A stretch of DNA of 64,000 nucleotides from positions 104,274-168,273 of the forward strand of contig CBDBIS010000001.1 in the NCBI GenBank assembly GCA_965206075.1, read 5' to 3'. A model generated the notes under the pieces. That model was given only the letters and a program-made list of their open reading frames with translations, was not told the DNA's origin and made no database searches. Within the stretch, counting starts at the first letter, position 1. Each line of letters begins with the position of its first letter. Of the stretch, positions 20,784 to 38,799 are shown piece after piece. The stretch is from Alphaproteobacteria bacterium (GTDB taxonomy: Bacteria > Pseudomonadota > Alphaproteobacteria > Bin95). Position numbers and translations under genes: made by a program.

Positions 20784-20807
20784 TGTCATGTTCTGTCATG
20801 TTCGCCA
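20784..20807 (-). promoter_or_regulatory. CATGACA heptad x2-3 (array 5 of 5), overlapping the recombinase stop codon
   Basis: Read on + strand as 'tgtcatgttc tgtcatgttc gccatg'. Confidence 0.4.
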
Positions 20808-22696: not shown

Positions 22697-22709
22697 GGTC
22701 CGGAATCTC

Positions 22710-23012
22710 CTATCGGTCGTGCGCCTCCTTCTCCGGCGCGTTGTCGTTGGCGGCCGTGAGCCCGTCGAACTCCTCGCGGGCGATCTGCCGCCCGATCAGC
22801 CGGGCGAGCCGCATGACGGCGGCATCGATCCGCGCTTCCGCTCCGCCGCCTGCCCCGTCCTGCCCTGCCGACTTGGAGGCCGGCACAGGCGGACCCGATC
22901 CGCGTGCCTCCGGGCCGTGATTGTCGTTCGCGGCCCCGCCGCTGCGGTTCGCGCGCCTGCGGTCTCCCCCGTTCCCCTGCATTGCCTCCGCCTTCTCCCG
23001 GACCTTGTCCAT
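22710..23012 (-). CDS. hypothetical small protein (100 aa) translationally coupled upstream of the serine recombinase
   Basis: Stop lies 13 nt before the recombinase ATG. C-terminal helical segment 'IDAAVMRLARLIGRQIAREEFDGL'. Middle is low-complexity. Confidence 0.35.
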   Translation of the reverse strand: MDKVREKAEAMQGNGGDRRRANRSGGAANDNHGPEARGSGPPVPASKSAGQDGAGGGAEARIDAAVMRLARLIGRQIAREEFDGLTAANDNAPEKEAHDR

Positions 23013-23177
23013 GGAGAAGGCATTTGAGGGCCGGCGCGAGCCCTGTCAAACGCGGTATGCCGGGGATTTCCTTTGCAATATCATAGCCTTGCGTACCCTT
23101 GTCGGTCCCTGCGGCGGCAGGCGCGGACAGGCGTACCCCGAGCGATATTTCGTCGCACAGCATGGTCGCGGCGCCTT

Positions 23178-23513
23178 TCAGTCCAGCACCCGGAGCGCGG
23201 TCTCCGGTGCCTTGTCGAGTACCCGCAGCAGGGCGCGCGCCGCCCCGGTCGGGCCGCGCTGGCCCTGTTCCCATTTGCGGATCGTGTCCGGCGGCACGCC
23301 GATGCGCCGCGCCATCTCCATCTGGGTGAGGCCCAGCCGCCGCCGCACCCGGCGCGCATAGCGCGCCATGTCCTGCATGGCTTCGGCCTCGTCCTCCCGC
23401 TGCTGAGCGGCAATGTCGGCCTCTGCGGTTGCGTCCACCGCCGAAGGGTCGATCCGCCCCTCGGGCAGGGTGGACGGGTCGGCGGGACCGGTCCCGATGC
23501 GCGTCGTGCTCAT
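23178..23513 (-). CDS. XRE-family HTH transcriptional regulator (antitoxin-like)
   Basis: HTH 'LGLTQMEMARRIGVPPDTIRKWEQGQRGPTGAARALLRVL'. Start placed at the internal ATG ('MSTTRIG'). Alternative longer start at 23603. Confidence 0.7.
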   Translation of the reverse strand: MSTTRIGTGPADPSTLPEGRIDPSAVDATAEADIAAQQREDEAEAMQDMARYARRVRRRLGLTQMEMARRIGVPPDTIRKWEQGQRGPTGAARALLRVLDKAPETALRVLD

Positions 23514-23804
23514 TCCATGCGGCCTCCCTTCCGGCGACCCCGAGCGGACCGCGAAATGCGCGCGTGGAACAGCCACCATCCTTCCGGGCCTGCATGGTCG
23601 CACATATAGCCCAATGGGCTATTGGTGTAAAGCCTGGAGGCGCAGTCCGAAGTCTGCAAGGGCTTCGGCGAAGCCGGACCACGGTCATTTGCCGGATCCG
23701 GGTTCATGAAAGCTGCCCCGCGCCACGCTGTCGGCTGCTCCATGCGGCGATGCAATGACCGCGCCGCTCGCGGCAGCCGGCCATCGATGGACCGTTCCCG
23801 GTCC

Positions 23805-26153
23805 CTACGTCTTCATGTGTCCGGGGAGATGGCCGATCACGACCTGCCGGTCCGCATCGTCCCAGGTGAAATAGAGGCGGAAGCAGTATCTCGGATCGCG
23901 GGTGTTCGAGGCCGTCTTCAGGTGCCGGTCGAGGGTCAGCCTGCGGCCGTTCCATTCGACGGTGAAATCGTCGCGCGCCTTGCCCTGGCGGTCGCGGCTT
24001 ATGCTGGGGGTCTCAAGCAGCCGCAGCGCGCGCAGTTCGGCGTCGAACGCCTCCCGCAGTTCCCTGCCGCCTTCGGTCTTCATCCGCCAGTAGGCGCTGC
24101 CGAGCAGTGCAATTGCCCCAGCCACCAGCGCCACATCCTCGAACTCGGCTCCCTTGAGCGCCCTGAGCGCGCGGCCCGCCAGCGCCACGCGTCCGCCGTA
24201 ATGCTGCGCCGCCCAATCCGGCAGCTCCGCATAGCTCGCCGGCGGCGGCACTGTCGGGTTCTCCGTCGCCGCCTCCAGCGGCGCGACGCCTTCCAGCACC
24301 GCGATCCGCTGCTGCAGGCGGCGCCTCTCGCGCCGCAGCCCGGCATTTTCCTCGCCGGCGCCGTCCACCTCCTGCGACAGCGCCGCGATCCGCTCCTCCG
24401 CCTGCCGGTTCGCCGCCTTCAAGTCGTCGATTTCAGCGCGCAGCACCCGCTCCCTCTCCTTCGGGCCCGGAAGCGTTTCGGTTTCCCCGCCGGTGTCCCG
24501 GCCCGCCATCGAGCCGAACGTTCCGACCAGCTCCCCCAGGCAGGCGCCGATGGCATCGAGCGCCGCCGCCGGCTCGCTCGACGGCGGCTCGGCGTTCACC
24601 GCCCCGGCCGCCGTCTGCAGGGCCTCCAGGTTCGCCGCGCTCGGAGTCTCTGCATAGCGGCGCGACGCCTCCTGGAGCGCCCGCTCCCGTTCCCCCGGCT
24701 CCACGATTTCCGCACGGAAGCGTTCCGCCAGTTCCCGGCAGCGCTCCCATTCGGGATCCGGAAAGCCGAGCGGCAGGGAGGCATCGGCCAGCAGCCCCGA
24801 GACACTGTCCTTCAGCCCATCCGCCCTTTCGGCGAACCGCGTCTCCGGCAACGCATCCAGCGTCTCCTGCAACAGCGCCCGCAACAATCCGTGCCGGCGC
24901 CGCGCTAGCGCCTCCTGGCGCGCGTCCTCCAGCTCCTCGACAGCACCGAACAGGGTTTCGACGTCGAACAGCAGGTATGACAACCTTTCTTCCGCCGCGC
25001 CGTAGTCCTCAAGCGCCGCGACATGCTCCTTCAGGCGGGCCCAGGCCTCGTCCATCTCCCTGCGCAGCGTCGCGGCCATGGCCTCCGCCCGCGCCGCCAG
25101 CCCTTCCAGCTGCGCCCCGGCGGGCTCGCCCAGCAACCGCTCGACCAGATTGCCGCGTTCGGGGTCCACGCCGAAACGCTGGCGGCGCAGGGCGTCCCCG
25201 ATCAGCGCCTCGATCCCGGGCTCCCCCAACCAGGGGGACGCGATCAGGCGGCCCTCCGGTCCTTCCAGGCAGGACAGCACCCAGATCGATTGCGCTACCA
25301 ACTCGACTTCGCGCGCCTGCCACAGCGTCTCCAGATCGTCCAGAATCGTCGCATCGCCGTTGCCCGGACCGAAGGGGCTGAGAGACTGCGCCCTCTCGCC
25401 GGCCGTCCTGAGCACCCGCGGGCCCAGCAGCTTCCGTTCGCCCTTCGCCTCGCCGAAGGTCTTCACGATCCGGTCCTCGAACAGCCACAGGAACCAGGTC
25501 CAGCGCTGCGCAAAGCCATGCACCGCACGCCAGAACGCCGCCTCGTCGGAGCCGTTGGCCTCGGCAGGCCAATCGGCGTGCTCCTGCGCCAGCCAGACCG
25601 CCAGCTTGCGCAGGTCGGCCCGCATCAGATGGTGGTTCTCCCGAAGCCAGTCCGGCGTTGCGAAGGCCGGAAGCGGCCCCCGCTCCGGCTGCTTCACCGT
25701 GCCGGCCGACGCCGGGCCGGCGCCTGCTTTCGATCCTCCCGGAATTGCCCGTCCCTCCATGACTTGCGGCCTTGCCCAAGCCGCGCCGAATGCCAAGCGC
25801 AGCCCCGTCCCGTCCCCAAAGAATGGATAGGGGCCGCGACAGCCGCAAGCCCTTCCGGAAACCCTCCCGCGGCGCGCTTGCGCGCCCGCTTCGAAATGCG
25901 AGGACGCAGAAGGCGGCGGGCAGCTACTGGCGCCTGCCGGCGCCCATCGCTGCGGCTTGCGGCGGTCCGGCCGCGCGGCGGCGATCACCTGGCGCACGAT
26001 CGTCTGCGGGAGCCGGACCTCCCGCGCAATCGCCGCCGGCCGGAGGCCGGCCTCACAGGCAGCCAGGATCAGCCGTTCCTGTCCCGGCGTCAGGGACGCC
26101 GCGCGGTCCGGCGCGGCGGGTTTCGGTCCTGCCGGCGTTGCGGGGCCGGACAT
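23805..26153 (-). CDS. hypothetical large protein: N-terminal sigma70-region-4/LuxR-like HTH, Pro/Ser linker, ~640-aa coiled-coil-containing domain of unknown function
   Basis: The 1476-aa ORF 23805..28235 was trimmed because its upstream part is antisense to the triple-CSD gene. HTH 'LTPGQERLILAACEAGLRPAAIAREVRLPQTIVRQVIAAA'. Coiled-coil 'RVLRAEIDDLKAANRQAEERIAALSQEV'. Conserved-looking C-terminus 'RYCFRLYFTWDDADRQVVIGHLPGH'. GC3 dips in the linker, so an alternative start is the ATG at ~25760 ('MEGRAIPGG'). Confidence 0.5.
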   Translation of the reverse strand: MSGPATPAGPKPAAPDRAASLTPGQERLILAACEAGLRPAAIAREVRLPQTIVRQVIAAARPDRRKPQRWAPAGASSCPPPSASSHFEAGAQARRGRVSGRACGCRGPYPFFGDGTGLRLAFGAAWARPQVMEGRAIPGGSKAGAGPASAGTVKQPERGPLPAFATPDWLRENHHLMRADLRKLAVWLAQEHADWPAEANGSDEAAFWRAVHGFAQRWTWFLWLFEDRIVKTFGEAKGERKLLGPRVLRTAGERAQSLSPFGPGNGDATILDDLETLWQAREVELVAQSIWVLSCLEGPEGRLIASPWLGEPGIEALIGDALRRQRFGVDPERGNLVERLLGEPAGAQLEGLAARAEAMAATLRREMDEAWARLKEHVAALEDYGAAEERLSYLLFDVETLFGAVEELEDARQEALARRRHGLLRALLQETLDALPETRFAERADGLKDSVSGLLADASLPLGFPDPEWERCRELAERFRAEIVEPGERERALQEASRRYAETPSAANLEALQTAAGAVNAEPPSSEPAAALDAIGACLGELVGTFGSMAGRDTGGETETLPGPKERERVLRAEIDDLKAANRQAEERIAALSQEVDGAGEENAGLRRERRRLQQRIAVLEGVAPLEAATENPTVPPPASYAELPDWAAQHYGGRVALAGRALRALKGAEFEDVALVAGAIALLGSAYWRMKTEGGRELREAFDAELRALRLLETPSISRDRQGKARDDFTVEWNGRRLTLDRHLKTASNTRDPRYCFRLYFTWDDADRQVVIGHLPGHMKT

Positions 26154-26504
26154 CCCTGCCCGCAGAGCGCGTGCAGCCGGGGGGCTGTCCGCTGCATTTC
26201 GTCCGCGCCGGCCGATTTCCGCGCTTACCGCCTTCGCCAAACGGTCGAGCTGTTCGTCGTCCAGCAGGCGCAGCGACCGTTCGAGGTCGGCCGGCAGGCC
26301 AAGGCGAGTCGTGCCCCGGACGTTGCATCCGGCGCCGGGCGCCACTCGTCTCCCATACCCCGATCCCGCGCCATCGTCCGCCTTCCTGTCCGCGCCATCC
26401 TGTCCCGTGCGCCCCTGCGCCCGCAAGGACTTCACCGCGCCCCTGGCGAAAGGTAGAAATGCCGTTCGATACCAACCTCCGTCATGAGGGGAAAGCCGTT
26501 CGAG

Positions 26505-27368
26505 ATGACAGCTCCTCTTCCGGGCTCCGGCGCCGGCATGTCCATTTCGGCTGCGGTCAAATGGTACGATCCGGGCAAGGGATACGGGTTCCTTCTGCCC
26601 GATGACGGCTCTCCGGACCTCTTCTGCCGGGCGCAGGTGCTGACGGCGGCGGGTCTCGACCGCCTTCTTCCCGGCGCGGCGGTCGTCTGCGAGACGGCGC
26701 CGGGCCTGCGCGGACCCGAGGTCTCGCGAATTCTGTCCATAGACTTTTCCACGGCGGCGGCGCGCATGGCATCCCCGGCCCGCGCGCCCGTCAACGGAGG
26801 GGCTGCCGCCGGACCCGGCGTCGGGCCGGTCGGCCCGCCGGTCCGCGCTTTCGTCAAATGGTTCCAGCCGGCCAAGGGTTACGGCTTCCTCGAACGCGAG
26901 GACGGCGCCGCCGACCTGTTCTGCCACCTGACGCCCGTGCTGGCGTCGGGCCACCAAACGCTGCCCGAGGGCGCGGCCGTGACCTGCGAGGTCGTGCAGG
27001 GCGACCGGGGACCGCAAGTGTCGAAAATCCTGTCGGTAGAGCCGCCCGCCGCCATGCCCGCCGGCCCCGGACCCCGATCCGGGGGCCCGATGGAGCCGGG
27101 CCACAGTCTCTTCGACGCCGGCAAGCCGGGCCCGCAGGCCGTCGGCGCGTCTTCGCCCGTCATGGAGCTGAAGGGCGCGATCAAGTTCTTCGATCCCGCC
27201 AGAGGCTTCGGCTTCGTCGTGCCGGACGACGGCGGTCCCGAGGTGTTCGTCCATGCCAGCACCCTGTTCCGCTCCGGCATGACCGACCTTGAGCCGGGGC
27301 AGCGCGTCATCGTGAGCGCGGAGCACGTCCCGCGCGGGCTCCAGGCGACACGCATAGAGCCGCTCTGA
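26505..27368 (+). CDS. triple cold-shock-domain (CspA-like x3) protein
   Basis: Three tandem CSDs: 'VKWYDPGKGYGFL', 'VKWFQPAKGYGFL', 'IKFFDPARGFGFV', each with RNP1/RNP2-like motifs. Shine-Dalgarno GAGGGGAAA before ATG 26505. Alternative start at 26538. Confidence 0.8.
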   Translation: MTAPLPGSGAGMSISAAVKWYDPGKGYGFLLPDDGSPDLFCRAQVLTAAGLDRLLPGAAVVCETAPGLRGPEVSRILSIDFSTAAARMASPARAPVNGGAAAGPGVGPVGPPVRAFVKWFQPAKGYGFLEREDGAADLFCHLTPVLASGHQTLPEGAAVTCEVVQGDRGPQVSKILSVEPPAAMPAGPGPRSGGPMEPGHSLFDAGKPGPQAVGASSPVMELKGAIKFFDPARGFGFVVPDDGGPEVFVHASTLFRSGMTDLEPGQRVIVSAEHVPRGLQATRIEPL

Positions 27369-27398
27369 ACGGGCCGTCCGCGACAGGCCGCAGCCGCA

Positions 27399-27692
27399 AT
27401 GGAGAACATCATGGATGAGCCGGACGCGCCGCAATCGGCATCCGCAGAGGAAGAGGCCCGGATCGGCGAAATGCCGGCGGTTTTCGTCAACAAGGTCTAT
27501 GTCACGCGCACGCCCGGCGGCGGCGCGAAAATCACGTTTGCCGAAGCGCGCCAGGCGCAGGGCGGGAGCCCGGCGTCGCCGCGCGCGGCGGTGTTCCTGC
27601 AATACGCCGATCTCGCCGCCCTGCGTCGCCTCCTGGACTGGACTGCAAGCCCCGATGAGCCGTCGCAGCGCTTCGGCGGCTCGATGCATTAG
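27399..27692 (+). CDS. hypothetical small protein (97 aa)
   Basis: GGAGAA Shine-Dalgarno. GC3-rich. No recognised domain. Confidence 0.4.
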   Translation: MENIMDEPDAPQSASAEEEARIGEMPAVFVNKVYVTRTPGGGAKITFAEARQAQGGSPASPRAAVFLQYADLAALRRLLDWTASPDEPSQRFGGSMH

Positions 27693-28024
27693 CCGCCGGG
27701 CCCGCCCCTCTTCCCCGAACGCGGGCGCCCTCGCGCCTCGTCGATCCGCGCCTTCAGCTTGTCCGACGCCCTGAGGACAACGACCCGCCGCGCGGCGATC
27801 GGCGCCGCCTCGCCGGTCCTCGGGTTGCGCCCGGTCCGCGCCACCTTGTCCCGCAGCGCGAAGACGGCAAACCCCGAAATCTTCACCTCCTCGCCACGGA
27901 CCAGCGCTTCGACGATCTCCTCGATCATGTCCTCGACCAGCCCGGCCGACGCCGCATGCGAGAGGCCGATCCGCATTTGCACCGCCCGATACAGATCGGC
28001 CCGCGTCACCGTCCTGCCGCTCAT
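27689..28024 (-). CDS. HU/IHF-family DNA-binding protein
   Basis: HU fold: 'LVEDMIEEIVEALVRGEEVKISGFAVFALRDKVARTGRNPRTGEAAPIAARRVVVLRASDKLKARI'. Confidence 0.85.
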   Translation of the reverse strand: MSGRTVTRADLYRAVQMRIGLSHAASAGLVEDMIEEIVEALVRGEEVKISGFAVFALRDKVARTGRNPRTGEAAPIAARRVVVLRASDKLKARIDEARGRPRSGKRGGPGG

Positions 28025-28336
28025 GCCATCGCACCCTCATCAAGCTCCGTCGATTGCCCCGGCCCGGAGCATGCCCGGCTGCGATGGATCGCCCCATGGA
28101 GGTAGCCGTCCCGTCTCCTGGCCGCAAGCGGGACAGGCCGGGGCAATGGGTCGTCATGCCCTCCGGCAGCCTTGCAGGTGACGGTCGGGAACCGCGTCCC
28201 GGCCGCCATTCGGACGTCGCCGCCACGCCTCGCACCTCCAGGAGGCCGAGGCTGGCCGGAAGCCGGGCGGCGGTCGGGTGTCCGGAGAGGGCGTCCGGGC
28301 GCCGCTCATCATCACCGGCAGGATGGAGACGGCACC

Positions 28337-28666
28337 ATGACGGCAGCGATGGCGATGCCCGGCAACACGGCGGACACCTTTTTGGTTCACTTCTTCGGCG
28401 GCGGTCTCGAAGGCGACGACCGTTTCGTGGTCGAGCGGTTCCGCGCTCTGGCCTGCGGCGATATCCGCCCGGTCCGGCCCGAGGCGGCGGGCAAGAAGAG
28501 CCGGCGCAAGGCGGAGCACATTGTCGTTTCGCGCAAGCAGGCCGAGGCGATGCGTCCCGAGCGCGCGGAGATCATCATCTGCACCGGGCTCAGCACCCGC
28601 GGCGGCGTACAGAAGTGGGGGGCGATCGCAACCTCACTCATGTGCGACCGCAAGCAGCGCGGCTGA
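28337..28666 (+). CDS. hypothetical small protein (109 aa)
   Basis: 'aggatggag' Shine-Dalgarno before the ATG ('MTAAMAMPGNTADTFLVHFFGGG...'). No recognised domain. Confidence 0.35.
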   Translation: MTAAMAMPGNTADTFLVHFFGGGLEGDDRFVVERFRALACGDIRPVRPEAAGKKSRRKAEHIVVSRKQAEAMRPERAEIIICTGLSTRGGVQKWGAIATSLMCDRKQRG

Positions 28667-28751
28667 GCAGCAACTTCCGGGGGACGTCCCGCCGGCGCAC
28701 CGTCGGCGGGACGTCCTCTTCCGGGATTCCGATTTCGATGGGGAGAATGTC

Positions 28752-29771
28752 GTGGCCTATCGAGACGTGGAAGTCAGGAAACAACGCGACCGCGAGCGGT
28801 TCGCGCGCCGGACGGCCGCCCGGATTGCGGCCGGCCAATGCCCGCGCTGCGGCGAGCGGCCTCCCACGCCGGACCGCTCGGTGTGCGAGCCGTGCGCGGC
28901 CGGGAGAAACCGCACGAGCCGGGCCCGCGACGCGCGGCTGCGCGCCGAGGGAAAACCCAGGCGGAACATGGAGCGCGCGCGCGAGTACGAGCGCGAGCGG
29001 TCACGCAGGGAACGAGCCGCGCGCCAGGCCGGGGGCATTTGCGCCCGTTGCGGCACGCGCCCGTCGGCGGAAGGCCGCTCGTCCTGCGAGCCCTGCCTTC
29101 AGAAGCGCCGCGCCGAAGACCGGGCGAAATACCGGGCCGGCAAGGAAGCCGGAAAGCCGTATGGCGGGGCCAATGCCGATGCAAAGCGGCGCGCCGGCCG
29201 GGCCAGGAGCAGGAAGCGCCAGAAGGCGCGGATCGAGGCCGGGCTCTGCATTCGCTGCGGCGCGCGCCCGCCGGTCGAGGGGGGAACCACCTGCTCGCCA
29301 TGCCGCGAAAAGCGCCAGCAGGCCGAGCGGCAGTTGTATGCCGAACGCCGGGCTGCCGGTTGCTGCACGCGCTGCGGCGGTCCGGTCCATGAAGGCCTGT
29401 CGCGCTGTGCGCGATGCGCCGCCATCGAGGAGGCCGGCCGTTGCCCCGAACGCAAGAACGCGCGCTCCCGAAAGCTCTACGCCGCCAGGAGGGCGCGGGG
29501 CGAATGCACATCCTGCGGAGCGCCCGCGCAGGGGGCCAGCAGGTGCGCCCCATGCGCGGAGAAGTCGTACCACCGCTCGGCGCATTTCAGGGGCATCCCG
29601 GTCTGGGATCCGCAGTATACGGTGATCGAGATCGAGACGGGCGCCGACCACGGCACCTATGACAGCATGGCCGACGTGGCGCTCTGCCTCGCCTTCGCCA
29701 AGCTCGACCGCGACCGGGTGGAGATCGTGACGGACGCCCCGGTCACCGCGCGGCTGACGGCGTGGGAATGA
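28752..29771 (+). CDS. tandem zinc-ribbon protein (five CxxCG-x9-12-CxxC repeats) with conserved C-terminal domain
   Basis: Five repeats read directly, e.g. 'CPRCGERPPTPDRSVCEPCAAGRNR', 'CARCGTRPSAEGRSSCEPCLQKRR', 'CIRCGARPPVEGGTTCSPCREKRQ', 'CTRCGGPVHEGLSRCARCAA', 'CTSCGAPAQGASRCAPCAEK', each followed by a basic stretch. GTG start with GGGGAGA Shine-Dalgarno. The ATG at 28521 is an alternative. Confidence 0.55.
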   Translation: MAYRDVEVRKQRDRERFARRTAARIAAGQCPRCGERPPTPDRSVCEPCAAGRNRTSRARDARLRAEGKPRRNMERAREYERERSRRERAARQAGGICARCGTRPSAEGRSSCEPCLQKRRAEDRAKYRAGKEAGKPYGGANADAKRRAGRARSRKRQKARIEAGLCIRCGARPPVEGGTTCSPCREKRQQAERQLYAERRAAGCCTRCGGPVHEGLSRCARCAAIEEAGRCPERKNARSRKLYAARRARGECTSCGAPAQGASRCAPCAEKSYHRSAHFRGIPVWDPQYTVIEIETGADHGTYDSMADVALCLAFAKLDRDRVEIVTDAPVTARLTAWE

Positions 29772-29901
29772 GCGGCGCCATGCGTGCCGGGGGCCGGGCG
29801 CCCGCCGGCCTCCTGCACGTGCCGCCGGCCCGCCGCCCGCCGGGATGCGTATCGCCGTCCCGCGGGCGGCAGATCCGAACCCGACGACAGGAGATCGACC
29901 G

Positions 29902-30153
29902 ATGACCGTCGACACGCTGCCCGACTGCCCCCGCTACTGTTTCGCGCCCATCGAGGACGCCGAGCTCGGGGTGCAGCAGATCCGCATATTCGTCGAGGGC
30001 CTGGACGCGGCCATCGGCACGTCGCTGGTCGTGCTGGGCATCGACGAGGCCATGGCGATGGCGGACAGGCTCAACCGTCCGCTCGGCTGGACGCGGGCGG
30101 GGTGGACCGCCTTCGCCGCGACATGCATCCGCGGGGCCAGCACCCCGGACTGA
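29902..30153 (+). CDS. hypothetical small protein (83 aa)
   Basis: AGGAGA Shine-Dalgarno before the ATG ('MTVDTLPDCPRYCFAPIEDAELG'). Confidence 0.45.
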   Translation: MTVDTLPDCPRYCFAPIEDAELGVQQIRIFVEGLDAAIGTSLVVLGIDEAMAMADRLNRPLGWTRAGWTAFAATCIRGASTPD

Positions 30154-30371
30154 CGCGCCGGCCACGCCGCGCGGTCGACGGGCTCCACCCGCGCGATGCC
30201 CGGCCTGCCATCCTGACGGCGCCACCGGCCCGCGCCTGTCGCGGGCGACCGCGTCCTGGGCCGAAGCTCCCGTCGAGGAGCCGGAGAGGAGCGCTTTGCG
30301 GGCGATCGCCCGGAGAGCGGAGGGAGCGGTTTCCCTCGAACGCGCCGGGCAGCGCAAAGGAGGCTCCGGCC

Positions 30372-30614
30372 ATGTTCGACCCCGACATCCATATCGACGT
30401 TCCCACCGGCGCCCTGCTCGCCGAGATCGGCATCGACCCCGCCGCTGCGAGCGAGGTCATCGCGGAAGACCGCGCCCTCCGCTGCCCCGACCGGGATCGG
30501 GTGCGTCTCGAGTGCGGCACCGCGTTCCTCGACGTCGCCATGCCGCACGGGACCACCCTGCGCGGGGCGACGGGCAGCATGGTCCCGGTCCCGGCGTACC
30601 GCCCCGCGAAATAG
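30372..30614 (+). CDS. hypothetical small protein (80 aa)
   Basis: AGGAGG Shine-Dalgarno before the ATG ('MFDPDIHIDVPTGALLAEIGIDP'). Confidence 0.45.
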   Translation: MFDPDIHIDVPTGALLAEIGIDPAAASEVIAEDRALRCPDRDRVRLECGTAFLDVAMPHGTTLRGATGSMVPVPAYRPAK

Positions 30615-30725
30615 AGGAGGAGGGAAGCCTGGAGAAGGTGAACGGCGGGGGGCCGGGGGGAGCGATCGTCCCGGTCTCCCGTCGTTCGCGAACCCATCGT
30701 CATGAACGAGACCTGAAGGAGCATC

Positions 30726-31202
30726 GTGATGAGCTTCGGAATGAACCGCGTCGAACTGATCGGCCGCCTCGGCGCCGACGTCACCGTCAACCACCTGATG
30801 AGCGGGGGGCGCGTCGCGAATTTGAGCATCGCGACCGATGAGTCCTACTTCAACCGCGACGGCCAGAAGGTCGACAAGACCGAGTGGCACCGGGTCGTGA
30901 CCTTCCAGGACGGCCTCATCGACATGCTGGAGCGCCACGCGAAGAAGGGCCGCCTGGTCCACGCCGAGGGCAAGCTCCAGACCCGGCGGTGGAAGAAGGA
31001 CGGCGAGGACGGCGACCGCTTCTCGACCGAGATCCTGATCGTGCCCGGTCACAAGATCCAGTTCCTCGACAAGCCTGCCGGCGCGAACGGCAACGGCGCC
31101 CTGGCCGAGACCGCCCCGCCGAAGGCGAACGGCGAGGCCATGCCGGCCGGCGGCGACCCGGCGCAGGGCGATGACTTCGGATCGGATCGCATTCCCTTCT
31201 GA
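30726..31202 (+). CDS. ssb: single-stranded DNA-binding protein
   Basis: OB-fold SSB ('NRVELIGRLGADV...RVANLSIATDESY...KTEWHRVV') with the acidic C-terminal tail 'DDFGSDRIPF'. Confidence 0.9.
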   Translation: MMSFGMNRVELIGRLGADVTVNHLMSGGRVANLSIATDESYFNRDGQKVDKTEWHRVVTFQDGLIDMLERHAKKGRLVHAEGKLQTRRWKKDGEDGDRFSTEILIVPGHKIQFLDKPAGANGNGALAETAPPKANGEAMPAGGDPAQGDDFGSDRIPF

Positions 31203-31227
31203 GCCGGTTCCCCTTCCTCCCAACTCA

Positions 31228-31256
31228 GGCGGCTGCTTCGGCAGTCGCCTTTTTTT
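31228..31256 (+). terminator. rho-independent terminator after ssb
   Basis: Hairpin GGCGGCTGC-ttcg-GCAGTCGCC followed by T7. Confidence 0.7.
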
Positions 31257-31724
31257 CTGCCGTGGGTCCGGAGCCCGCGTCCGCGCCGAGACCGCCCGGA
31301 TGCCCGACACCCATCCGCTCTGGCGGTGACGGGCGCATGTCCGCAGATCGGCGCCCCGCCGGCAGACGCCGTGCCGGCCGAGAGGCCCATGGCGTCGGTG
31401 CGGGTGGAGAGATTTGGCCGACGACGTGCTGTCCTATTGTGCCACACGTGCTCCCTCCGCCAACCCCTCCGGGGTCCTCCGCTGGCGCTCCGGCGCGGGG
31501 AGGTTCCGCTAGGCGCCGCGACGGGGCGACCGTGGCTCAGGCCCAAGCTACGCCAGGGCTCGTTCCTCGCCAGGCTCCGCTAGGGCCTTGCGCCCGCACC
31601 ACTCGCCCCGCCGCGCCGCCAAGCTCCACCAACCCCGCGTGGCTGCGGTCCGCGCGCGTGACCCAAAAGGACATCACATCGGGGATCGGCCCCGAACGTG
31701 CAACCGATCGCATAGGAGATCGTC

Positions 31725-32648
31725 ATGAACATCATCGACACCATCGAGACCGCCGCGCAGTCCGCCACCGCAACCGTCTGCGACAACGCCGCCCTGTTCG
31801 GCGCTGCCCCCGAGCGCGACGAGTTCGACAGCCGGGAGGTCTGGGACCGCGACGATGCGCTCGCCGCCGTCGCCGAGGCCTTCCGCATCCTGGCCCAGGG
31901 CGTCGCGCCGGACGGCACCCAGCTCGCCGACGAGCGCGAGAGCCTGCTCTGGGGCTTCGTCAACATGCTCGACAGCCAGACCAACCGCCTCGACCGCGCC
32001 GCCGACAGGCTGATGCCCGAACTCCGCAACCTCCAGCGCGCCCAGGACGGCACCGAGATCAAGTCGCTTGAACTCGAGATGACCACCCACCGCGCGCAGT
32101 GCCTCACCGACCGGCGCGACGCCTTCGAGACCATGCGCGACACCGCCGCCGAACAGTATCGCGCCGAGACCGGCAACGTCTGGCGGCCCCGGCGCGGCAG
32201 CCACGTCTCGCAGACCGGCGCCCTGACCTCCGCCAGCATCGACGCCCGCGACTTCGCCCGCGCCCGGCAGGACCGCAAGACCGCCGCGCATCTGCCCCAG
32301 GGCACCCTCGTCGCCATCGCCGGCGGCAAGGACGTCGCCGACCCGGCCGCAGTGATCGCCATGCTCGAAAGGACCCGCGCCAAGCACGCCGACATGGTGC
32401 TCGTCCACGGCGGCGGCCCCGGCGTCGAGAAGATCGCGGCGCGCTGGGCCGAGCGGAACGGCGTCCACCAGGTCGTCTGCAAGCCGGACTGGGATCGCCA
32501 CGGACGCGCCGCTCCGTTCCGCCGCAACGAGGAACTGCTGAACCTCCTGCCGAAGGGCGTGCTCGCGTTCCCCGGTTCGGGCATCACCGAGAATCTCGTG
32601 GACCGCGCCCGCCAGCTGGGCATCCCGGTCATGAAGGCCGCGGCCTGA
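31725..32648 (+). CDS. DUF2493/SLOG-family (YspA-like) protein with N-terminal coiled-coil domain
   Basis: C-terminal half 'LVAIAGGKDVADPAAV...MVLVHGGGPGVEKIAARWAERNGVHQVVCKPDWDRHGRAAPFRRNEELL...GVLAFPGSGITENL' fits the SLOG/DUF2493 pattern common on plasmids and ICEs. Confidence 0.55.
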   Translation: MNIIDTIETAAQSATATVCDNAALFGAAPERDEFDSREVWDRDDALAAVAEAFRILAQGVAPDGTQLADERESLLWGFVNMLDSQTNRLDRAADRLMPELRNLQRAQDGTEIKSLELEMTTHRAQCLTDRRDAFETMRDTAAEQYRAETGNVWRPRRGSHVSQTGALTSASIDARDFARARQDRKTAAHLPQGTLVAIAGGKDVADPAAVIAMLERTRAKHADMVLVHGGGPGVEKIAARWAERNGVHQVVCKPDWDRHGRAAPFRRNEELLNLLPKGVLAFPGSGITENLVDRARQLGIPVMKAAA

Positions 32649-33374
32649 CCGCAACGCATCGCGGGCCGCGTCGTCATCCCCGCAGTGGGACGGTGGCGCG
32701 GCCCGTTTCGTTTCCGACCCACGGCGTTGCGGCGGCAATGCCGTCCTCGCGCGCGCTTCGCGCGGCGCTCGCCGCCTCGCTACGCTCGGCGTCCTCGGCA
32801 GCGTGCTCGCACGCCTGCCGTCGGCTCCGCCGACGCGCCGGCCGGCAATCGCGTCGTCCGCCTTTGCAACATTTCTGCGCATGTGTGCTTCGGCTACTGC
32901 GTCGGTCATTGTGCACGACACAATGCACGGCGTCGGCATCGGTGACTGTGGTCGCGGTCGCCATCGCGATCGTCGCGCGCGTCGCCACTGCCGGCTTCGC
33001 CGTCACCGGCCTCCGCGGTAGCCGCCGCGGTCGCGGGCATGCTCGTGCGGCCGTCGCCGCCGATGCCGCCGTCACGGCGCTCGACACTTCGTCCCTCCGT
33101 AGTGTCGCCGACAACGACCACTCAAGCGCCGTGGCGGCTTCGATCCGCCGCTCTCGCCGGCGACGATTCCCCCATGAAAATCGCTGCACGATTCGGTGCC
33201 TTCCACGCCCGGAGGGCGCTGGCTCGTCACACCCGACTCACCGCTGGTGAATGGGGCGCAGGCGTAGCCCCGGAGGGCCCTTCCGGCGCCTTACCGAGCC
33301 AGTCGGGGCCTATCGTATGATGGGAACCCGTAGTGCGGATTGTGTTACGACCAAGTCTCTGGAATCATTGGCGG

Positions 33375-33458
33375 TGTTTGTTCCGTGTTCGCTGTGTATG
33401 CTCCAGAGCACCGCGCGCAACTCGCGCGCAACTCGCCCGGACACGGAACAAACACCGG
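33375..33458. promoter_or_regulatory. 16-bp perfect inverted repeat (GGTGTTTGTTCCGTGT / ACACGGAACAAACACC) flanking tandem 'GCGCGCAACTC' repeats; candidate oriT or operator upstream of mobC-like gene
   Basis: Read directly from the sequence. Located in an 850-bp non-coding stretch between the DUF2493 gene and the RHH gene. Confidence 0.4.
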
Positions 33459-33575
33459 ATCGCCGCCCGCGGTCACATAGGCCAATGGACCGGGAAATAG
33501 CCCATGGCCATCCGAAACCGACCGGCATTCCGCTCGCGGAGGGGCCGGTGGAAGGCTCGAACAGGGGAGGTAACG

Positions 33576-33917
33576 ATGGCGGTCAGGAGCTTCCAGCGCT
33601 CGATCCGGTTCACGAACAACGAGTGGGATGCCGTGGTCGAGGCCGCCGAGAAGGCCGGAATCGCGCCCGGCTCGTTCGTGCGCAAGGCCGCCGCGCGCGC
33701 CGCGGCCGACGATTTATATCTCTATGGCGGCGGCCTGACACCCGAATTGGCCGATCTGATCCAGCGGACCCACCGTGGCGTCCACCTGCTCACCTACCTG
33801 AAGCGGGAGGAGCTCGCCGGATCGGAAAGGGGAGCGCTCTTCGACCGGGCCGTCGAAGACGCCCGCGCCACCCAGATCAAGGCGCTCGGCGACGACCGCT
33901 CAAGCGAAGATTCGTAG
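33576..33917 (+). CDS. ribbon-helix-helix mobilization accessory protein (MobC-like)
   Basis: 'RSIRFTNNEWDAVVEAAEKAGIAPGSFVRKAA' matches the MobC/RHH relaxosome-accessory pattern. GGGGAGG Shine-Dalgarno before the internal ATG. Confidence 0.55.
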   Translation: MAVRSFQRSIRFTNNEWDAVVEAAEKAGIAPGSFVRKAAARAAADDLYLYGGGLTPELADLIQRTHRGVHLLTYLKREELAGSERGALFDRAVEDARATQIKALGDDRSSEDS

Positions 33918-34108
33918 CACCCTCGGCCTCCGGCGGGCGACGCCGGTCCCAGCCTTTTCCGCGGTGGTTGGCTCCAGGGTACCCCGCACCCGACCGGTTC
34001 GCCGAACCGATCAAAGGCGCCACGAAAGGCGCCGCCGCCGATCCCCGCCACGCTCATTCGACGCTTCGTCCGTCCGCCGGCAGCGTCATCTCATGCAACG
34101 ACGCACGC

Positions 34109-34420
34109 TCAGGCGACCCGTCTTCCGAACGGAACAAGGTCGATTTCGTCCTCGCGCTCGCGGGTCCGGGCGATGTCGTAGCCGGTCTGCATGCGCAACA
34201 GCGTGTCCATCGACACGCCGAATACCTTCTCGATCCTGAGCGCCATTTCGGGCGAGAGGCTCGCCCGCTCGTTGAGCAGCGCGGACAGCGCCGGGCGCGT
34301 GACCCCCAGCGCCGACGCGGCCCCGGTCACCGACAGGCCCATCGCCTCGACGATCTCGCTCTTCACGAACCCGCCCGGGTGGGCCGGGTTCTTCATCCGC
34401 AAACCCTGTGTCGTGCCCAT
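34109..34420 (-). CDS. higA: HigA-family antitoxin (XRE HTH)
   Basis: 'IVEAMGLSVTGAASALGVTRPALSALLNERASLSPEMALRIEKVFGVSMDTLLRMQTGYDI' is the HigA addiction-module antidote signature. Confidence 0.85.
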   Translation of the reverse strand: MGTTQGLRMKNPAHPGGFVKSEIVEAMGLSVTGAASALGVTRPALSALLNERASLSPEMALRIEKVFGVSMDTLLRMQTGYDIARTREREDEIDLVPFGRRVA

Positions 34421-34429
34421 CGCCGTCTC

Positions 34430-34720
34430 CTAGTGGTAATCCTCGTAGTCGAGGTCGACGATCTCGCCCTCGGCGCGGTCGATCCGGAAGGTGAGCCGCC
34501 AGTTCCCGGTCACCGTCAGGCTCCACACGCCCCTGCGGTTGCCGGTCAGCCGGTGCGCGTTCCAGCCCGGAACCGTCCGCAATTCGTCCTCGCGCTCCAT
34601 GTCCTGGAGGAACGACAGCATCCGCCGCAGCTTCGGCACGGCCGCGGGCGGGAGCGCCGCAGCATTGTCTTCCTCGATGAACCGGCGCAGCCCCCTGTGA
34701 ATCACGTTCCGAATCTTCAT
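34430..34720 (-). CDS. higB: HigB-family toxin (RelE/ParE superfamily, plasmid-maintenance killer)
   Basis: 'MKIRNVIHRGLRRFIEEDN...LRRMLSFLQDME...PGWNAHRLTGNRRGVWSLTVTGNWRLTF' fits the HigB pattern. Sits directly upstream of higA. Confidence 0.8.
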   Translation of the reverse strand: MKIRNVIHRGLRRFIEEDNAAALPPAAVPKLRRMLSFLQDMEREDELRTVPGWNAHRLTGNRRGVWSLTVTGNWRLTFRIDRAEGEIVDLDYEDYH

Positions 34721-34980
34721 GGCGGAAGCTATCGAAGAGACACGTCAAGCGTCAAGCGACGCAATACGATGCCATCCGGCAGCTGAAACCCCGGCCGGAG
34801 GCAACCGCATTTGCCGGCGATCCGCGACTGCGCGGCGCATCGTTCCGGCAGGAAACAAACGGCTTCGATTCGTGCGCGACTTGCAGAAGGGTACGTCGCC
34901 GGACATGGCGGCCGGGCCGGTGGCGCCGGCCGGAGCCCCACCGACATGTCCAGCGTCGGCGGTTCCCGACCAACCGGGGA

Positions 34981-37969: not shown

Positions 37970-38766
37970 CAGAAGAATTGCTGGCCCAGCTCGCGCCTGG
38001 GCACGATCGCCTCGCCCTCGGCCGGCTCTTCGGCCTCCGTCGTGTCCGGCCGGCTTTCTGGATCGGCGGGGGCCGGGTTCGCCGGAACCGCGACACCGGC
38101 GCTCCGGGCGCTTTCCGCCGACGGCAGGCCCGGCGCTTCCGTCCGCTCCAACAGCTCGCCGTCGGTCACCATAGGCTTCGCGCCGTCCGGCTCCGGGAGG
38201 TCGATGAATCCTGGACGTCGCCTGCCGCCGAGCAACGTCAGGAGGCGTTCGAGCTCCGCCGGAGACACCACCAGCAGCGCGACCCGCGCGCGCAGGCCGG
38301 GACGGACCCACTCGGCGACGCGCCCCGCCGGCCCCGGTGCCGCCAAATGCCGATGGGGATATTCCACCGGCTCCAGCGCCGTCCCGGACCGGCCGCGCCG
38401 CCCATGGCCCGCGGCCCCGAGCAGCATCAGGCAGAACACCGTCCCGCCGGCGCCGGCGCCCAGCATGACGCCGTCTCCGATCGCCGCCAGGATGCGCCGC
38501 CGCGCCTCCACCGCCGACGGGAATTGGGCAACCGCCGCTCGAATGATGTTCCAGACGTCGCCGTCCGCCCTGCGGTATGCAACGGTCGTGTACTCGCTGA
38601 AACCGACGGCCAGCATGGCCTCCGCAACCGTCAGCTTCCGGGCCGCGTACCAGTCATGACCGGCGGTCCCACGCGCCAGCAGGATGACCGGCGCCGCCAG
38701 CGTCATTGCGGCGACGCCGAGCAGCCCCAGCCGGATCATGCGGCGCGGCCATCGCGCGCCCGACAT
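37969..38766 (-). CDS. hypothetical membrane protein (265 aa) upstream of and overlapping the traA start
   Basis: Two to three predicted TM segments ('IRLGLLGVAAMTLAAPVILLA', 'TVFCLMLLGAAG'). Stop overlaps the traA ATG (TGATG). Confidence 0.5.
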   Translation of the reverse strand: MSGARWPRRMIRLGLLGVAAMTLAAPVILLARGTAGHDWYAARKLTVAEAMLAVGFSEYTTVAYRRADGDVWNIIRAAVAQFPSAVEARRRILAAIGDGVMLGAGAGGTVFCLMLLGAAGHGRRGRSGTALEPVEYPHRHLAAPGPAGRVAEWVRPGLRARVALLVVSPAELERLLTLLGGRRRPGFIDLPEPDGAKPMVTDGELLERTEAPGLPSAESARSAGVAVPANPAPADPESRPDTTEAEEPAEGEAIVPRRELGQQFF

Positions 38767-38799
38767 GTCAACCGGCCCAGGGGCCGGAGACGCCCGAAC

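What the first reader, a model, noticed from the sequence alone, without database searches (positions are those of the whole stretch)
28752..29771. Protein with five tandem CxxCG...CxxC zinc-ribbon repeats on the mobile element
Five evenly spaced zinc-ribbon units, each followed by an Arg/Lys-rich stretch, precede a ~80-aa conserved C-terminal domain ('FRGIPVWDPQYTVIEIETGADHGTYDSMADVALCLAFAKLD'). No standard family comes to mind. The position between HU and ssb in an ICE leading region suggests a nucleic-acid-binding role such as anti-restriction, ssDNA coating or a regulator.
Basis: seen in the sequence. Interest (0 to 1): 0.55.

Follow-up and report, generated by a model that had tools for sequence, protein, structure and literature searches.

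The report
Five-zinc-module basic protein on mobilizable island
This is a real, strongly conserved gene for an uncharacterised, very basic protein made of five zinc-binding helical modules plus a small acidic end domain; it sits in one apparent operon with a single-strand-DNA-binding gene on a mobilizable genomic island shared among uncultured, apparently sponge- and coral-associated bacteria, and it most likely binds nucleic acid, though that was not tested.

Summary
Window 28752..29771 (+) is a real 339-aa gene, and the rival +1 ORF is not the coding frame. It has five Cys4 units whose cysteines are invariant in relatives, but the units are not evenly spaced. They are five homologous helix–Zn–helix modules (net charge about +43) followed by an acidic ~50-residue folded domain.

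No curated family (Pfam, NCBIfam, PHROGs, PADLOC) and no solved structure matches. The family is large (>800 clusters at 90% identity) and has 3–8 modules. All 80 genome loci come from metagenome-assembled genomes of several phyla, often with several copies per genome.

The element is a ~19-kb integrative mobilizable element (serine recombinase, TrwC relaxase, no type IV secretion genes), not a demonstrated ICE. HU is an incidental neighbour. The conserved partners are an unknown 109-aa gene directly upstream and ssb downstream. The layout suggests one operon: structured leader, g105, this gene, two small ORFs, ssb, terminator.

The best reading is a multivalent single-strand nucleic-acid binder that works with SSB in transfer or establishment. 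A regulator that binds the operon's conserved RNA hairpins is a serious rival. "Leading region" and "anti-restriction" remain unproven. In passing I found a conserved, covarying 76-nt leader hairpin that Rfam does not contain.

The parts
28252..28328 (+). Conserved structured leader hairpin (about 76 nt, up to about 30 bp) ending at the Shine-Dalgarno GGAG of g105
   Evidence: Covariance model R1 scores 66.5 bits here and finds 74 hits in 82 sources, about one per locus, all on the + strand just upstream of g105. On the model-fitted alignment 81.5% of cells pair against 38-46% with slid partners, and 12 pairs show compensatory changes (0 of 500 shuffles reach the score). G.U pairs outnumber A.C 219 to 87. 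The + strand folds 8.5 kcal/mol better than the - strand in 64 of 66 loci. No Rfam match at E<=1.
28337..28666 (+). g105: 109-aa protein of unknown function, the conserved upstream partner
   Evidence: GC3 is 0.84-0.85 in this frame. 533 homologues of 105-110 aa, none with a name or a Pfam domain. It lies directly upstream of the zinc-module gene in 61 of 72 loci with flank. No Pfam, PHROG, NCBIfam, PADLOC or PDB relative.
28682..28716 (+). Intercistronic 16-bp hairpin (GGACGTCCCGCCGGCG / CGTCGGCGGGACGTCC) between g105 and the zinc-module gene
   Evidence: Inverted repeat I4, 94% complementary. A GGACGTCC..GCCGGC-type stem follows the g105 stop in most of 71 distinct loci (median shuffle z -2.0; 36 of 71 below -2). 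No U-tract follows it.
28752..29771 (+). Zinc-module protein gene: 339 aa, GTG start, stop included
28839..28895 (+). Zn site 1 (C30, C33, C45, C48), long module 1 (about residues 1-68)
   Evidence: AF2 places helices 6-26 and 46-65 on either side.
29040..29096 (+). Zn site 2 (C97, C100, C112, C115), long module 2 (about residues 69-137)
   Evidence: Flanking helices 73-93 and 113-132.
29247..29303 (+). Zn site 3 (C166, C169, C181, C184), long module 3 (about residues 138-203)
   Evidence: Flanking helices 142-162 and 182-201.
29364..29417 (+). Zn site 4 (C205, C208, C219, C222), short module 4
   Evidence: It shares helix 182-201 with module 3.
29505..29555 (+). Zn site 5 (C252, C255, C265, C268), short module 5
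   Evidence: Flanking helices 232-248 and 266-275.
29592..29768 (+). Acidic C-terminal domain (residues 281-339; beta-beta-alpha-beta-alpha core at 288-336; pI 4.2)
   Evidence: AF2 core pLDDT 96-97. Charge. Many invariant residues. No PDB fold match at E<0.1. No Pfam or PDB sequence match.
29902..30153 (+). g83: small ORF of unknown function, present in part of the loci
   Evidence: GC3 0.94. tblastn match in 26 of 81 loci. No family hit.
30372..30614 (+). g80: small ORF of unknown function, present in part of the loci
   Evidence: GC3 0.91. Match in 26 of 81 loci. No family hit.
30640..30687 (+). Conserved sense-strand hairpin upstream of ssb
   Evidence: Stem of about 20 bp, MFE -54.9 to -61.1 kcal/mol for the two overlapping stretches folded. 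The block 30610-30725 matches up to 44 loci. The + strand folds 10.9 kcal/mol better than the - strand in 58 of 60 loci. It is not an instance of model R1 (9.5 bits).
30726..31202 (+). ssb (158 aa) with a C-terminal ...DRIPF tip
   Evidence: Pfam SSB, E 1.5e-22. Sequence. Same strand within 3 kb downstream of the zinc-module gene in 50 of 62 loci.
31227..31257 (+). Intrinsic terminator (10-bp stem plus T7) closing the proposed operon
   Evidence: The only terminator-like site in 27600-33700.
20786..39450 (.). Surrounding integrative mobilizable element, approximate limits. It runs from the serine recombinase through Xre HTH, an HEC-07-like gene, a triple-CSD protein, HU, the operon above, a YAcAr protein, a NikA-like protein, HigBA, TrwC and a 256-aa ORF to an HTH_17 protein.
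   Evidence: Pfam and PADLOC scans. 1-20 kb holds ABC transporters and other housekeeping genes. DDE_3 transposases and polysaccharide genes lie beyond 39.6 kb. att sites were not mapped.

Best explanation
The gene encodes a multivalent, zinc-stabilised, polycationic nucleic-acid-binding protein. It belongs to the conserved backbone of a family of TrwC-relaxase integrative mobilizable elements.

Shown:
- It is a real gene under purifying selection.
- It consists of five mutually homologous helix-Cys4-helix modules plus an acidic alpha/beta end domain.
- Relatives carry 3 to 8 modules.
- It is flanked by g105 upstream and ssb downstream.
- The layout (leader hairpin, g105, this gene, two small ORFs, ssb, then a single terminator) looks like one operon.

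Inferred: the basic helices clamped by the zinc knuckles lie along a nucleic-acid backbone. The number of modules sets footprint and avidity. The preferred substrate is single-stranded nucleic acid, namely the strand displaced by the relaxase in the donor or the strand arriving in the recipient, where the protein would act with the element's own SSB to protect or organise it. The acidic C-terminal domain would recruit a partner or limit self-association. I cannot say whether it acts in the donor or the recipient.
For: - Gene reality and conservation.
- Repeat homology.
- Architecture: the AF2 model has mean pLDDT 87.6, with eight long helices joined alternately by zinc sites.
- Charge: 74 Arg/Lys against 31 Asp/Glu in residues 1-280, with a C-terminal domain of pI 4.2.
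- Conserved basic face: invariant Arg at i, i+4, i+8 positions such as R16, R20, R24, and a conserved aromatic residue on most helices (Y79, Y127, Y196, Y243).
- Weak unit-level resemblance to the RNA-binding zinc ribbon of ribosomal protein eL37 (E 0.004) and to small phage multi-zinc-ribbon proteins (Foldseek E 4e-5 to 9e-4).
- Synteny: ssb on the same strand within 3 kb in 50 of 62 loci and g105 directly upstream in 61 of 72.
- One terminator, located after ssb.
- TrwC, NikA-like and recombinase genes in the same element and in related loci.
- Precedent: tandem zinc ribbons bind ssDNA in the E. coli topoisomerase I C-terminal region (PMC7192597).
Against: - No binding was measured.
- No homology to any characterised nucleic-acid binder passes a family threshold.
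- The topoisomerase zinc ribbons are beta-sheet domains, whereas these modules are mainly helical, so the precedent is only functional.
- pTM is 0.41, so the arrangement of the modules relative to one another is unknown.
- ssDNA, RNA and dsDNA cannot be told apart from sequence.
- A minority of loci keep g105 and this gene without ssb nearby (L007, L008, L027, L029).
- Co-transcription with ssb is inferred only from the absence of terminators.
Confidence: 0.4

Rival explanations
1. It is an RNA-binding regulator of its own operon. The protein, alone or with g105, would recognise the conserved sense-strand hairpins that precede g105, itself and ssb, and would set translation, stability or read-through. 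This would resemble the way ribosomal proteins or T4 gp32 autoregulate through leader RNAs (that comparison rests on my own knowledge).
For: - Three conserved hairpins lie 12-60 nt upstream of the three start codons.
- The g105 leader covaries and is specific to this operon.
- The structures are much more stable in the mRNA sense: 64 of 66 and 58 of 60 loci, with no asymmetry in a coding control. G.U pairs outnumber A.C 219 to 87.
- The best sequence resemblance of one unit is to an rRNA-binding zinc ribbon, eL37.
- The leader and the intercistronic stems share a GGACGUCC-like arm.
Against: - Nothing links the protein to the hairpins apart from position, and co-occurrence within one operon is uninformative.
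- The ssb hairpin is not an instance of the leader model (9.5 bits).
- A net charge of +43 spread over 280 residues looks more like a general coating protein than a specific operator binder.
- The element-encoded triple cold-shock-domain protein is another candidate hairpin binder here, but it is rare across loci (3 of 81).
Confidence: 0.25
2. It is an establishment or anti-defence factor of the leading region, expressed early in the recipient to shield incoming DNA from restriction or other nucleases.
For: - SSB and anti-defence genes cluster in leading regions in a single orientation (PMC11541004).
- If oriT lies in the YAcAr-nikA gap, where a 20-nt inverted repeat sits at 33372-33457, then g105, this gene, ssb and the YAcAr gene all point toward oriT, as leading-region genes do.
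- Related elements carry defence cargo such as type I R-M, AbiE and an Mrr-like gene, so an arms-race context is present.
Against: - oriT is not mapped. The inverted repeat is shared only by the two or so closest loci, and inverted repeats upstream of nikA homologues are inconsistent.
- If oriT lies instead upstream of the HTH_17-g256-trwC operon, these genes would be on the wrong strand.
- The hairpins before these genes are sense-strand structures, which is the opposite of what an Frpo-type ssDNA promoter for them would need.
- No PADLOC hit and no known anti-restriction domain.
- No homologue in 72,556 plasmids, 50,697 phage records or IMG/VR viral contigs.
Confidence: 0.12
3. It is a dsDNA architectural or relaxosome accessory protein that bends or condenses the excised element, or helps assemble TrwC at oriT.
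For: - It sits in the backbone of a TrwC/NikA-like element.
- The g105-plus-gene pair persists next to a divergent TrwC even where ssb is missing (L007).
- Basic helices could enter DNA grooves.
- This particular element also carries HU.
Against: - The gene is linked to ssb rather than to trwC or nikA (TrwC in 18 and NikA in 19 of 81 loci within 10 kb, against 58 for ssb).
- No repeated DNA motif matching a 5-module reader was seen near the candidate oriT.
- No homology to known relaxosome accessory proteins.
Confidence: 0.12
4. It is not a functional gene but a chance ORF or a decaying repeat in a GC-rich genome.
For: GC-rich DNA gives many long spurious ORFs, for example the 1476-aa ORF on the opposite strand and the 523-aa +1 ORF.
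Against: - GC3 periodicity supports this frame.
- More than 800 homologue clusters conserve the length of 339 aa.
- The cysteines are invariant.
- dN/dS is 0.21-0.30.
- AF2 is confident locally.
Confidence: 0.01

Closest known systems
C-terminal zinc-ribbon repeats of bacterial topoisomerase I (Topo_C_ZnRpt; E. coli TopA domains D5-D9)
   Same: Both are tandem Cys4 zinc modules. The number of modules varies between relatives (1-5 there, 3-8 here). The topoisomerase repeats bind ssDNA with high affinity (PMC7192597).
   Different: The topoisomerase repeats are four-stranded beta-sheet domains with stacking aromatics and are fused to an enzyme core. The modules here are helix-Zn-helix with almost no beta structure, stand alone, and give no zf-C4_Topoisom hit. 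The resemblance is in function only, not membership.
Pfam double zinc ribbon families DZR (PF12773) and DZR_2 (PF18912)
   Same: CxxC...CxxC knuckles. These are the only Pfam models that score at all. A few homologues carry a precomputed PF18912 hit.
   Different: Scores of 16.9 and 19.4 bits fall below the gathering thresholds of 27.3 and 27, and cover about 20 residues of one unit. These families say nothing about function.
Ribosomal protein eL37 zinc ribbon
   Same: The family profile matches the eL37 zinc ribbon with its basic flank (HGLCRRCG...C..C) at E 0.004-0.08 in many ribosome structures. In the ribosome that element is buried in rRNA (my own knowledge).
   Different: The match covers a single unit of about 38 residues and is marginal. 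The protein has no ribosomal context and is not a homologue in any demonstrable sense.
Small phage multi-zinc-ribbon proteins in BFVD (for example A0A8S5SEH9, A0A8S5SE21, B6CXI6)
   Same: Foldseek E 4e-5 to 9e-4. These proteins of 93-162 aa appear to contain two or three similar zinc modules.
   Different: They are uncharacterised, and their names are machine transfers (NMD3, Nob1, HypA-like). Whether they carry the C-terminal domain could not be checked, since only scores and lengths were returned. No sequence-level relative exists in phage or viral collections.
Leading-region establishment genes of conjugative plasmids (ssb, psiB, ardA/ardC and others)
   Same: Co-located and co-oriented with an element-borne ssb on a transferable element.
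   Different: Leading-region status is unproven here because oriT is unmapped. No homology to any of those proteins. Absent from PLSDB plasmids.

Membership tests
Pfam DZR / DZR_2 (double zinc ribbon) | Score at or above the curated gathering threshold (27.3 and 27 bits) | tested here: not met
   16.9 and 19.4 bits, with no stretch passing on its own.
Topoisomerase I C-terminal zinc-ribbon repeats | Match to the zf-C4_Topoisom model and a four-stranded antiparallel beta-sheet module | tested here: not met
   No Pfam hit at E<=0.1. The AF2 modules are helix-Zn-helix with only isolated beta bridges. The family description comes from PMC7192597.
DksA/TraR C4 zinc-finger family | Match to PF01258 with CxxC-x17-CxxC spacing beside a coiled coil (the spacing is from my own knowledge) | tested here: not met
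   No Pfam hit. The spacing between the CxxC pairs here is 9-11 residues.
Known anti-restriction or anti-defence proteins (ArdA, ArdB/KlcA, ArdC and others) and known defence proteins | Sequence match to the corresponding Pfam, NCBIfam or PADLOC models | tested here: not met
   No hit in Pfam, NCBIfam, PHROGs or PADLOC. PADLOC holds defence models, not anti-defence models.
Leading-region gene of a conjugative or mobilizable element (operational class) | Lies within the first kilobases transferred from oriT | tested here: inconclusive
   oriT is not mapped. A candidate inverted repeat at 33372-33457 would put the gene 3.6-4.6 kb from oriT, but it is shared only by the closest loci. An alternative site upstream of the trwC operon is not excluded.
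Leading-region gene of a conjugative or mobilizable element (operational class) | Encoded so that the transferred strand is the template, often behind an ssDNA (Frpo-type) promoter | tested here: inconclusive
   The orientation fits only if oriT is in the YAcAr-nikA gap. The hairpins before g105 and ssb are sense-strand structures, which does not fit an Frpo-type promoter for these genes. The - strand of 28000-28340 folds with z -2.3 against -1.0 for the + strand, which is weak.
   None among the genes scanned across the 64-kb window. Only the relaxase, a NikA-like protein and a recombinase are present, which makes it an integrative mobilizable element.
Cys4 zinc-binding protein (general) | Four conserved Cys per site in CxxC...CxxC geometry | tested here: met
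   20 ligand cysteines are invariant. AF2 brings each pair of CxxC motifs together with pLDDT around 90.
Cys4 zinc-binding protein (general) | Bound zinc | not testable with these tools
   Needs metal analysis of purified protein.

The most novel reading that the evidence does not exclude
The protein may be a new kind of modular helix-Zn-helix repeat reader. Its number of modules (3-8 across relatives) would tune recognition of the GGACGUCC-type sense-strand hairpins that precede each cistron of its own operon. Together with the covarying 76-nt leader, it would form a self-contained RNA-protein switch that times ssb and transfer functions in a family of mobilizable islands spreading between phyla in what appear to be sponge and coral microbiomes.
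Probability: 0.1. Interest if true: 0.75.

Novelty: new variant of a known kind. Interest (0 to 1): 0.45.

Why it matters
If the protein does bind the transferred strand or the operon's RNA hairpins, it adds a new, easily recognised component to the DNA-processing and establishment toolkit of mobilizable islands. That toolkit is known almost entirely from plasmids of cultured pathogens.

The family is a marker for a set of relaxase-bearing islands that carry defence cargo (type I R-M, AbiE, HEC-07-like, Mrr-like). These islands occur in several copies per genome across Alpha- and Gammaproteobacteria, Acidobacteriota and Gemmatimonadota MAGs, so the family could help trace gene flow inside host-associated microbiomes.

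The variable-length array of zinc-capped basic helices is also an unusual protein design with no solved analogue. The conserved leader is a candidate new cis-regulatory RNA motif.

Tried and rejected
- Alternative +1 ORF (28054..29625): rejected on GC3 and on the frame of the homologues.
- Curated family searches of the protein, its C-terminal domain and g105 in Pfam, NCBIfam, PHROGs and PADLOC: nothing above threshold.
- PDB sequence searches: only marginal eL37 hits for the protein and nothing for g105 or the C-terminal domain.
- Foldseek against PDB with the full model and the C-terminal model: nothing below E 0.1.
- BFVD returned a ~50-residue DUF2188 hit at E 0.07. I could not tell which part of the model it matched, and hmmscan gave no DUF2188 signal, so I dropped it.
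- Plasmid, phage and viral-contig searches: no relatives apart from one 25%-identity fragment.
- A divergent repeat protein without the C-terminal domain (P0237) was searched to find other architectures, but it only led back to the same family.
- Exact-sequence look-ups of the window's own proteins and of P0001 and P0271 found nothing, so the source organism is not identified.
- Frpo-type ssDNA promoter upstream of g105: disfavoured by the sense-strand bias of the structures, even though the - strand of the whole intergenic region has a weak z of -2.3.
- The ssb-upstream hairpin as a second copy of the leader motif: rejected at 9.5 bits.
- oriT mapping by inverted repeats and conservation: inconclusive.
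- No sigma-70-like promoter was found in 27600-33700.
- Literature searches found no description of this family or of these elements.
Full report

Yes. GC at codon position 3 is 0.81-0.94 in this frame from about 28680 to 29880. The competing 28054..29625 ORF has no such signal. The start is the GTG at 28752, 5 nt after GGGGAGA. More than a hundred homologues are exactly 339 aa long and begin MAY(R/A)D at that position.

Five CxxCG-x(8-11)-CxxC units lie at residues 30-48, 97-115, 166-184, 205-222 and 252-268. Only 12 of 20,000 shuffles of the same composition give even two such motifs. All 20 ligand cysteines are invariant in 21 sequences of 68-89% identity. They stay invariant or nearly so in a 41-sequence set reaching 40% identity. 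dN/dS against eight relatives is 0.21-0.30.

Two details need correcting.
- The units are not evenly spaced: the first-Cys spacings are 67, 69, 39 and 47 residues.
- The folded C-terminal domain is about 50 residues (288-336) behind a conserved linker, not 80 residues.

**2. Anatomy of the protein**

Profile-profile comparison shows the five units are homologous to one another (probability 97-99.5%, E 1e-11 to 4e-22). There are three long modules of 66-69 aa and two short ones of 40-47 aa. None resembles the C-terminal domain.

AlphaFold2 on a 41-sequence alignment gives mean pLDDT 87.6 but pTM 0.41, so the local structure is confident and the overall arrangement is not. The model has eight long helices (6-26, 46-65, 73-93, 113-132, 142-162, 182-201, 220-248 with a kink, 266-280). 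Zinc knuckles join them at alternate turns. In modules 3-5 consecutive zinc sites cap opposite ends of a shared helix. A beta-beta-alpha-beta-alpha domain follows. Modelled alone, that domain has a core pLDDT of 96-97.

Residues 1-280 carry 74 Arg/Lys against 31 Asp/Glu (pI 10.8). The last 59 residues are acidic (pI 4.2). Invariant arginines fall at i, i+4, i+8 spacing, and most helices keep one aromatic residue.

Relatives have 3, 4, 5, 6, 7 or 8 modules (about 196, 272, 339, 382, 420 and 465 aa). The full-length relatives examined, apart from the divergent P0237, end in the same C-terminal domain.

**3. Comparison with known families and structures**

- Pfam gives only sub-threshold double-zinc-ribbon hits (19.4 and 16.9 bits against cut-offs of 27 and 27.3). 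NCBIfam, PHROGs and PADLOC give nothing.
- A family profile against all PDB sequences gives only marginal matches of one unit to the zinc ribbon of ribosomal protein eL37 (best E 0.004).
- Foldseek against the PDB finds nothing below E 0.1 for either model.
- Against predicted viral structures, seven small phage proteins with two or three zinc modules match at E 4e-5 to 9e-4. They are uncharacterised, and their names are machine transfers.
- The C-terminal domain and the upstream partner g105 have no Pfam or PDB relatives.
- I found no paper describing the family.

**4. Distribution**

The family has at least 827 clusters at 90% identity and 93 clusters at 50% identity with E<1e-30.

All 80 genome loci retrieved are metagenome-assembled genomes. 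They include Rhodospirillales, Defluviicoccus, Thalassobaculaceae, Paracoccaceae, several Gammaproteobacteria, an Acidobacteriota bin and Candidatus Palauibacter. Bin labels such as RHO, COS and Plut suggest sponge and coral hosts. That reading of the labels is my own and was not checked.

Several genomes hold many copies: at least 7 in isolate 48c0c1bc, 5 on one contig of 78d396fd, and 4 in OY763326. Identity of 53-78% across phyla points to horizontal spread. There is no relative in 72,556 plasmids, and none in phage records or IMG/VR apart from one 25% fragment.

**5. Genomic context**

In the window the gene sits in an island of about 19 kb. In order, the island holds:
- a large serine recombinase (20786-22696, -) and an Xre-type HTH protein;
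- a 630-aa protein whose C-terminus matches the PADLOC candidate defence family HEC-07 (E 1e-57);
- a triple cold-shock-domain protein, a 97-aa ORF and HU (-);
- g105, the zinc-module gene, two small ORFs and ssb;
- a YAcAr/SLOG protein and a NikA-like protein;
- HigBA, TrwC relaxase-helicase (-), a 256-aa ORF and an HTH_17 protein.

Transposases and polysaccharide genes follow. Transporters and other housekeeping genes lie upstream. No type IV secretion or coupling-protein gene is present, so this is an integrative mobilizable element rather than a demonstrated ICE.

Across 81 related loci the conserved neighbours are g105 (73), ssb (58) and YAcAr (46). TrwC (18) and NikA (19) appear where the 10-kb flank reaches them. 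HU (4) and the CSD protein (3) are incidental. Counting only loci with enough flank, g105 lies directly upstream in 61 of 72. ssb lies on the same strand within 3 kb downstream in 50 of 62, often only 360-500 nt away.

Related loci show the same backbone behind different integrases and different defence cargo: type I R-M, AbiE and an Mrr-like helicase-nuclease.

**6. Operon structure and conserved hairpins (found in passing)**

Between 27600 and 33700 there is a single intrinsic terminator, a 10-bp stem plus T7 at 31227-31257 just after ssb. This suggests one transcript covering g105, the zinc-module gene, g83, g80 and ssb.

The 90-140 nt upstream of g105 are conserved at 72-84% DNA identity, even in loci whose g105 protein is only 45-50% identical.

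A covariance model of this stretch scores 66.5 bits at 28252-28328. It finds 74 hits in 82 sources, about one per locus, always on the + strand just before g105.

- On the raw MAFFT alignment, 80% of cells pair against 35-55% with slid partners.
- On the model-fitted alignment, which leans toward the structure, 81.5% pair against 38-46%. Twelve of 24 pairs show compensatory changes, and no shuffle of 500 reaches the covariation score.
- Rfam has no match there.

A second hairpin (28682-28716) follows the g105 stop and recurs with a GGACGTCC..GCCGGC stem in most loci. A third (30640-30687) precedes ssb and lies in a block conserved in up to 44 loci.

The g105 and ssb leaders fold 8.5 and 10.9 kcal/mol better as the sense strand than as its complement, in 64 of 66 and 58 of 60 loci. 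A coding control shows no bias. In the leader, G.U pairs outnumber A.C 219 to 87. These are therefore most likely mRNA structures, not Frpo-type ssDNA promoters for these genes.

**7. What it most likely does**

Nothing here measures function, so what follows is inference. Four features point to a multivalent nucleic-acid binder working with SSB on single-stranded DNA during transfer or establishment of the island (confidence 0.4):
- the strongly basic, zinc-braced helical array;
- module numbers that vary between relatives;
- tight linkage and probable co-transcription with ssb;
- membership of the backbone of relaxase-bearing islands.

Tandem zinc ribbons binding ssDNA have a precedent in the topoisomerase I C-terminal region, but the fold there is different.

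The main rival (0.25) is that the protein binds the operon's own RNA hairpins and regulates it. An anti-defence or leading-region role (0.12) depends on an oriT I could not place. The best candidate is the 20-nt inverted repeat at 33372-33457 upstream of the nikA-like gene, which would make all these genes point toward oriT. It is shared only by the closest relatives, and a site upstream of the trwC operon is not excluded. A dsDNA or relaxosome accessory role (0.12) is also possible.

**8. Verdict**

This is a real and well-conserved but uncharacterised protein family with an unusual helix-Zn-helix repeat design. It is correctly spotted but somewhat mis-set in context: the element is a mobilizable island rather than a shown ICE, and the conserved partners are g105 and ssb rather than HU. 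It is of moderate interest in itself. The interest rises somewhat because of the associated covarying leader motif and the cross-phylum spread of the host element.

Noticed in passing
window 28252-28328 (+): Conserved, covarying hairpin of about 76 nt in the 5' leader of g105. A covariance model finds 74 instances in 82 sources, always just upstream of g105 homologues. It is sense-strand biased and has no Rfam family. It is a candidate new cis-regulatory RNA motif.
   Followed up: yes
window 28682-28716 (+) and 30640-30687 (+): Further conserved GC-rich sense-strand hairpins lie between g105 and the zinc-module gene and upstream of ssb, so each of the three cistrons is preceded by a hairpin. 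The ssb hairpin is not an instance of the leader model.
   Followed up: partly
window 28337-28666 (+): g105 is a 109-aa protein with 533 homologues and no family, name or solved relative. It is the most constant neighbour of the zinc-module gene. Invariant motifs include TFLxHxxGxGL and RPxRxEIIxxTG.
   Followed up: partly
window 23805-25697 (-): The C-terminal ~215 residues of this 630-aa protein match the PADLOC candidate defence family HEC-07 (E 1.4e-57). It is probably defence cargo of the island. The N-terminal 400 residues are unassigned.
   Followed up: no
window 26484-27368 (+): A protein with three cold-shock domains in tandem (Pfam CSD, 3 stretches, E 1.3e-39) is encoded on the island next to HU. 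Similar genes occur in 3 of 81 related loci.
   Followed up: no
window 29592-29768 (+): Synonymous divergence is lower in the codons of the C-terminal domain (dS 0.25-0.50) than in the repeat array (0.75-0.80) in the closest pairs. This hints at recombination or an extra nucleotide-level constraint at the 3' end of the gene.
   Followed up: no
window 33372-33457 (+): A 20-nt inverted repeat (95% complementary, 46-nt spacer containing the tandem CGCGCGCAACT x2) lies about 120 nt upstream of the NikA-like gene. It is a candidate oriT but is shared only by the closest relatives. Some distant loci have GCGTATGCT-type inverted repeats at the equivalent place.
   Followed up: partly
window 31350-31500 and 32640-32760, 33060-33240 (+): These DNA blocks are conserved in 13-40 related loci, yet my GC3-based gene finder called no gene there. 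Related loci have a DUF4326 gene between ssb and YAcAr and a 224-aa ORF after YAcAr, so these may be degraded or missed genes.
   Followed up: no
window 34109-34720 (-): A HigB/HigA-type toxin-antitoxin pair sits between the NikA-like gene and TrwC.
   Followed up: no
window 7076-8464 (+): A group II intron reverse transcriptase/maturase (RVT_1 plus GIIM) lies in the chromosomal part of the window. Related loci also show reverse transcriptases and many IS elements near the islands.
   Followed up: no
window 55386-63998 (+): A giant ORF of more than 2870 codons with GC3 0.95 runs off the end of the window. It was not examined.
   Followed up: no
L007, L008, L027, L029 and other loci of isolate 48c0c1bc; L011/L019/L023/L026/L030 on one 5.3-Mb contig: Many copies of the island backbone occur per genome, several of them interrupted by IS elements, integrases or ankyrin-repeat genes. 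Some predicted 'fusion' proteins (P0145 with an integrase, P0226 with a transposase) are probably such insertions.
   Followed up: partly
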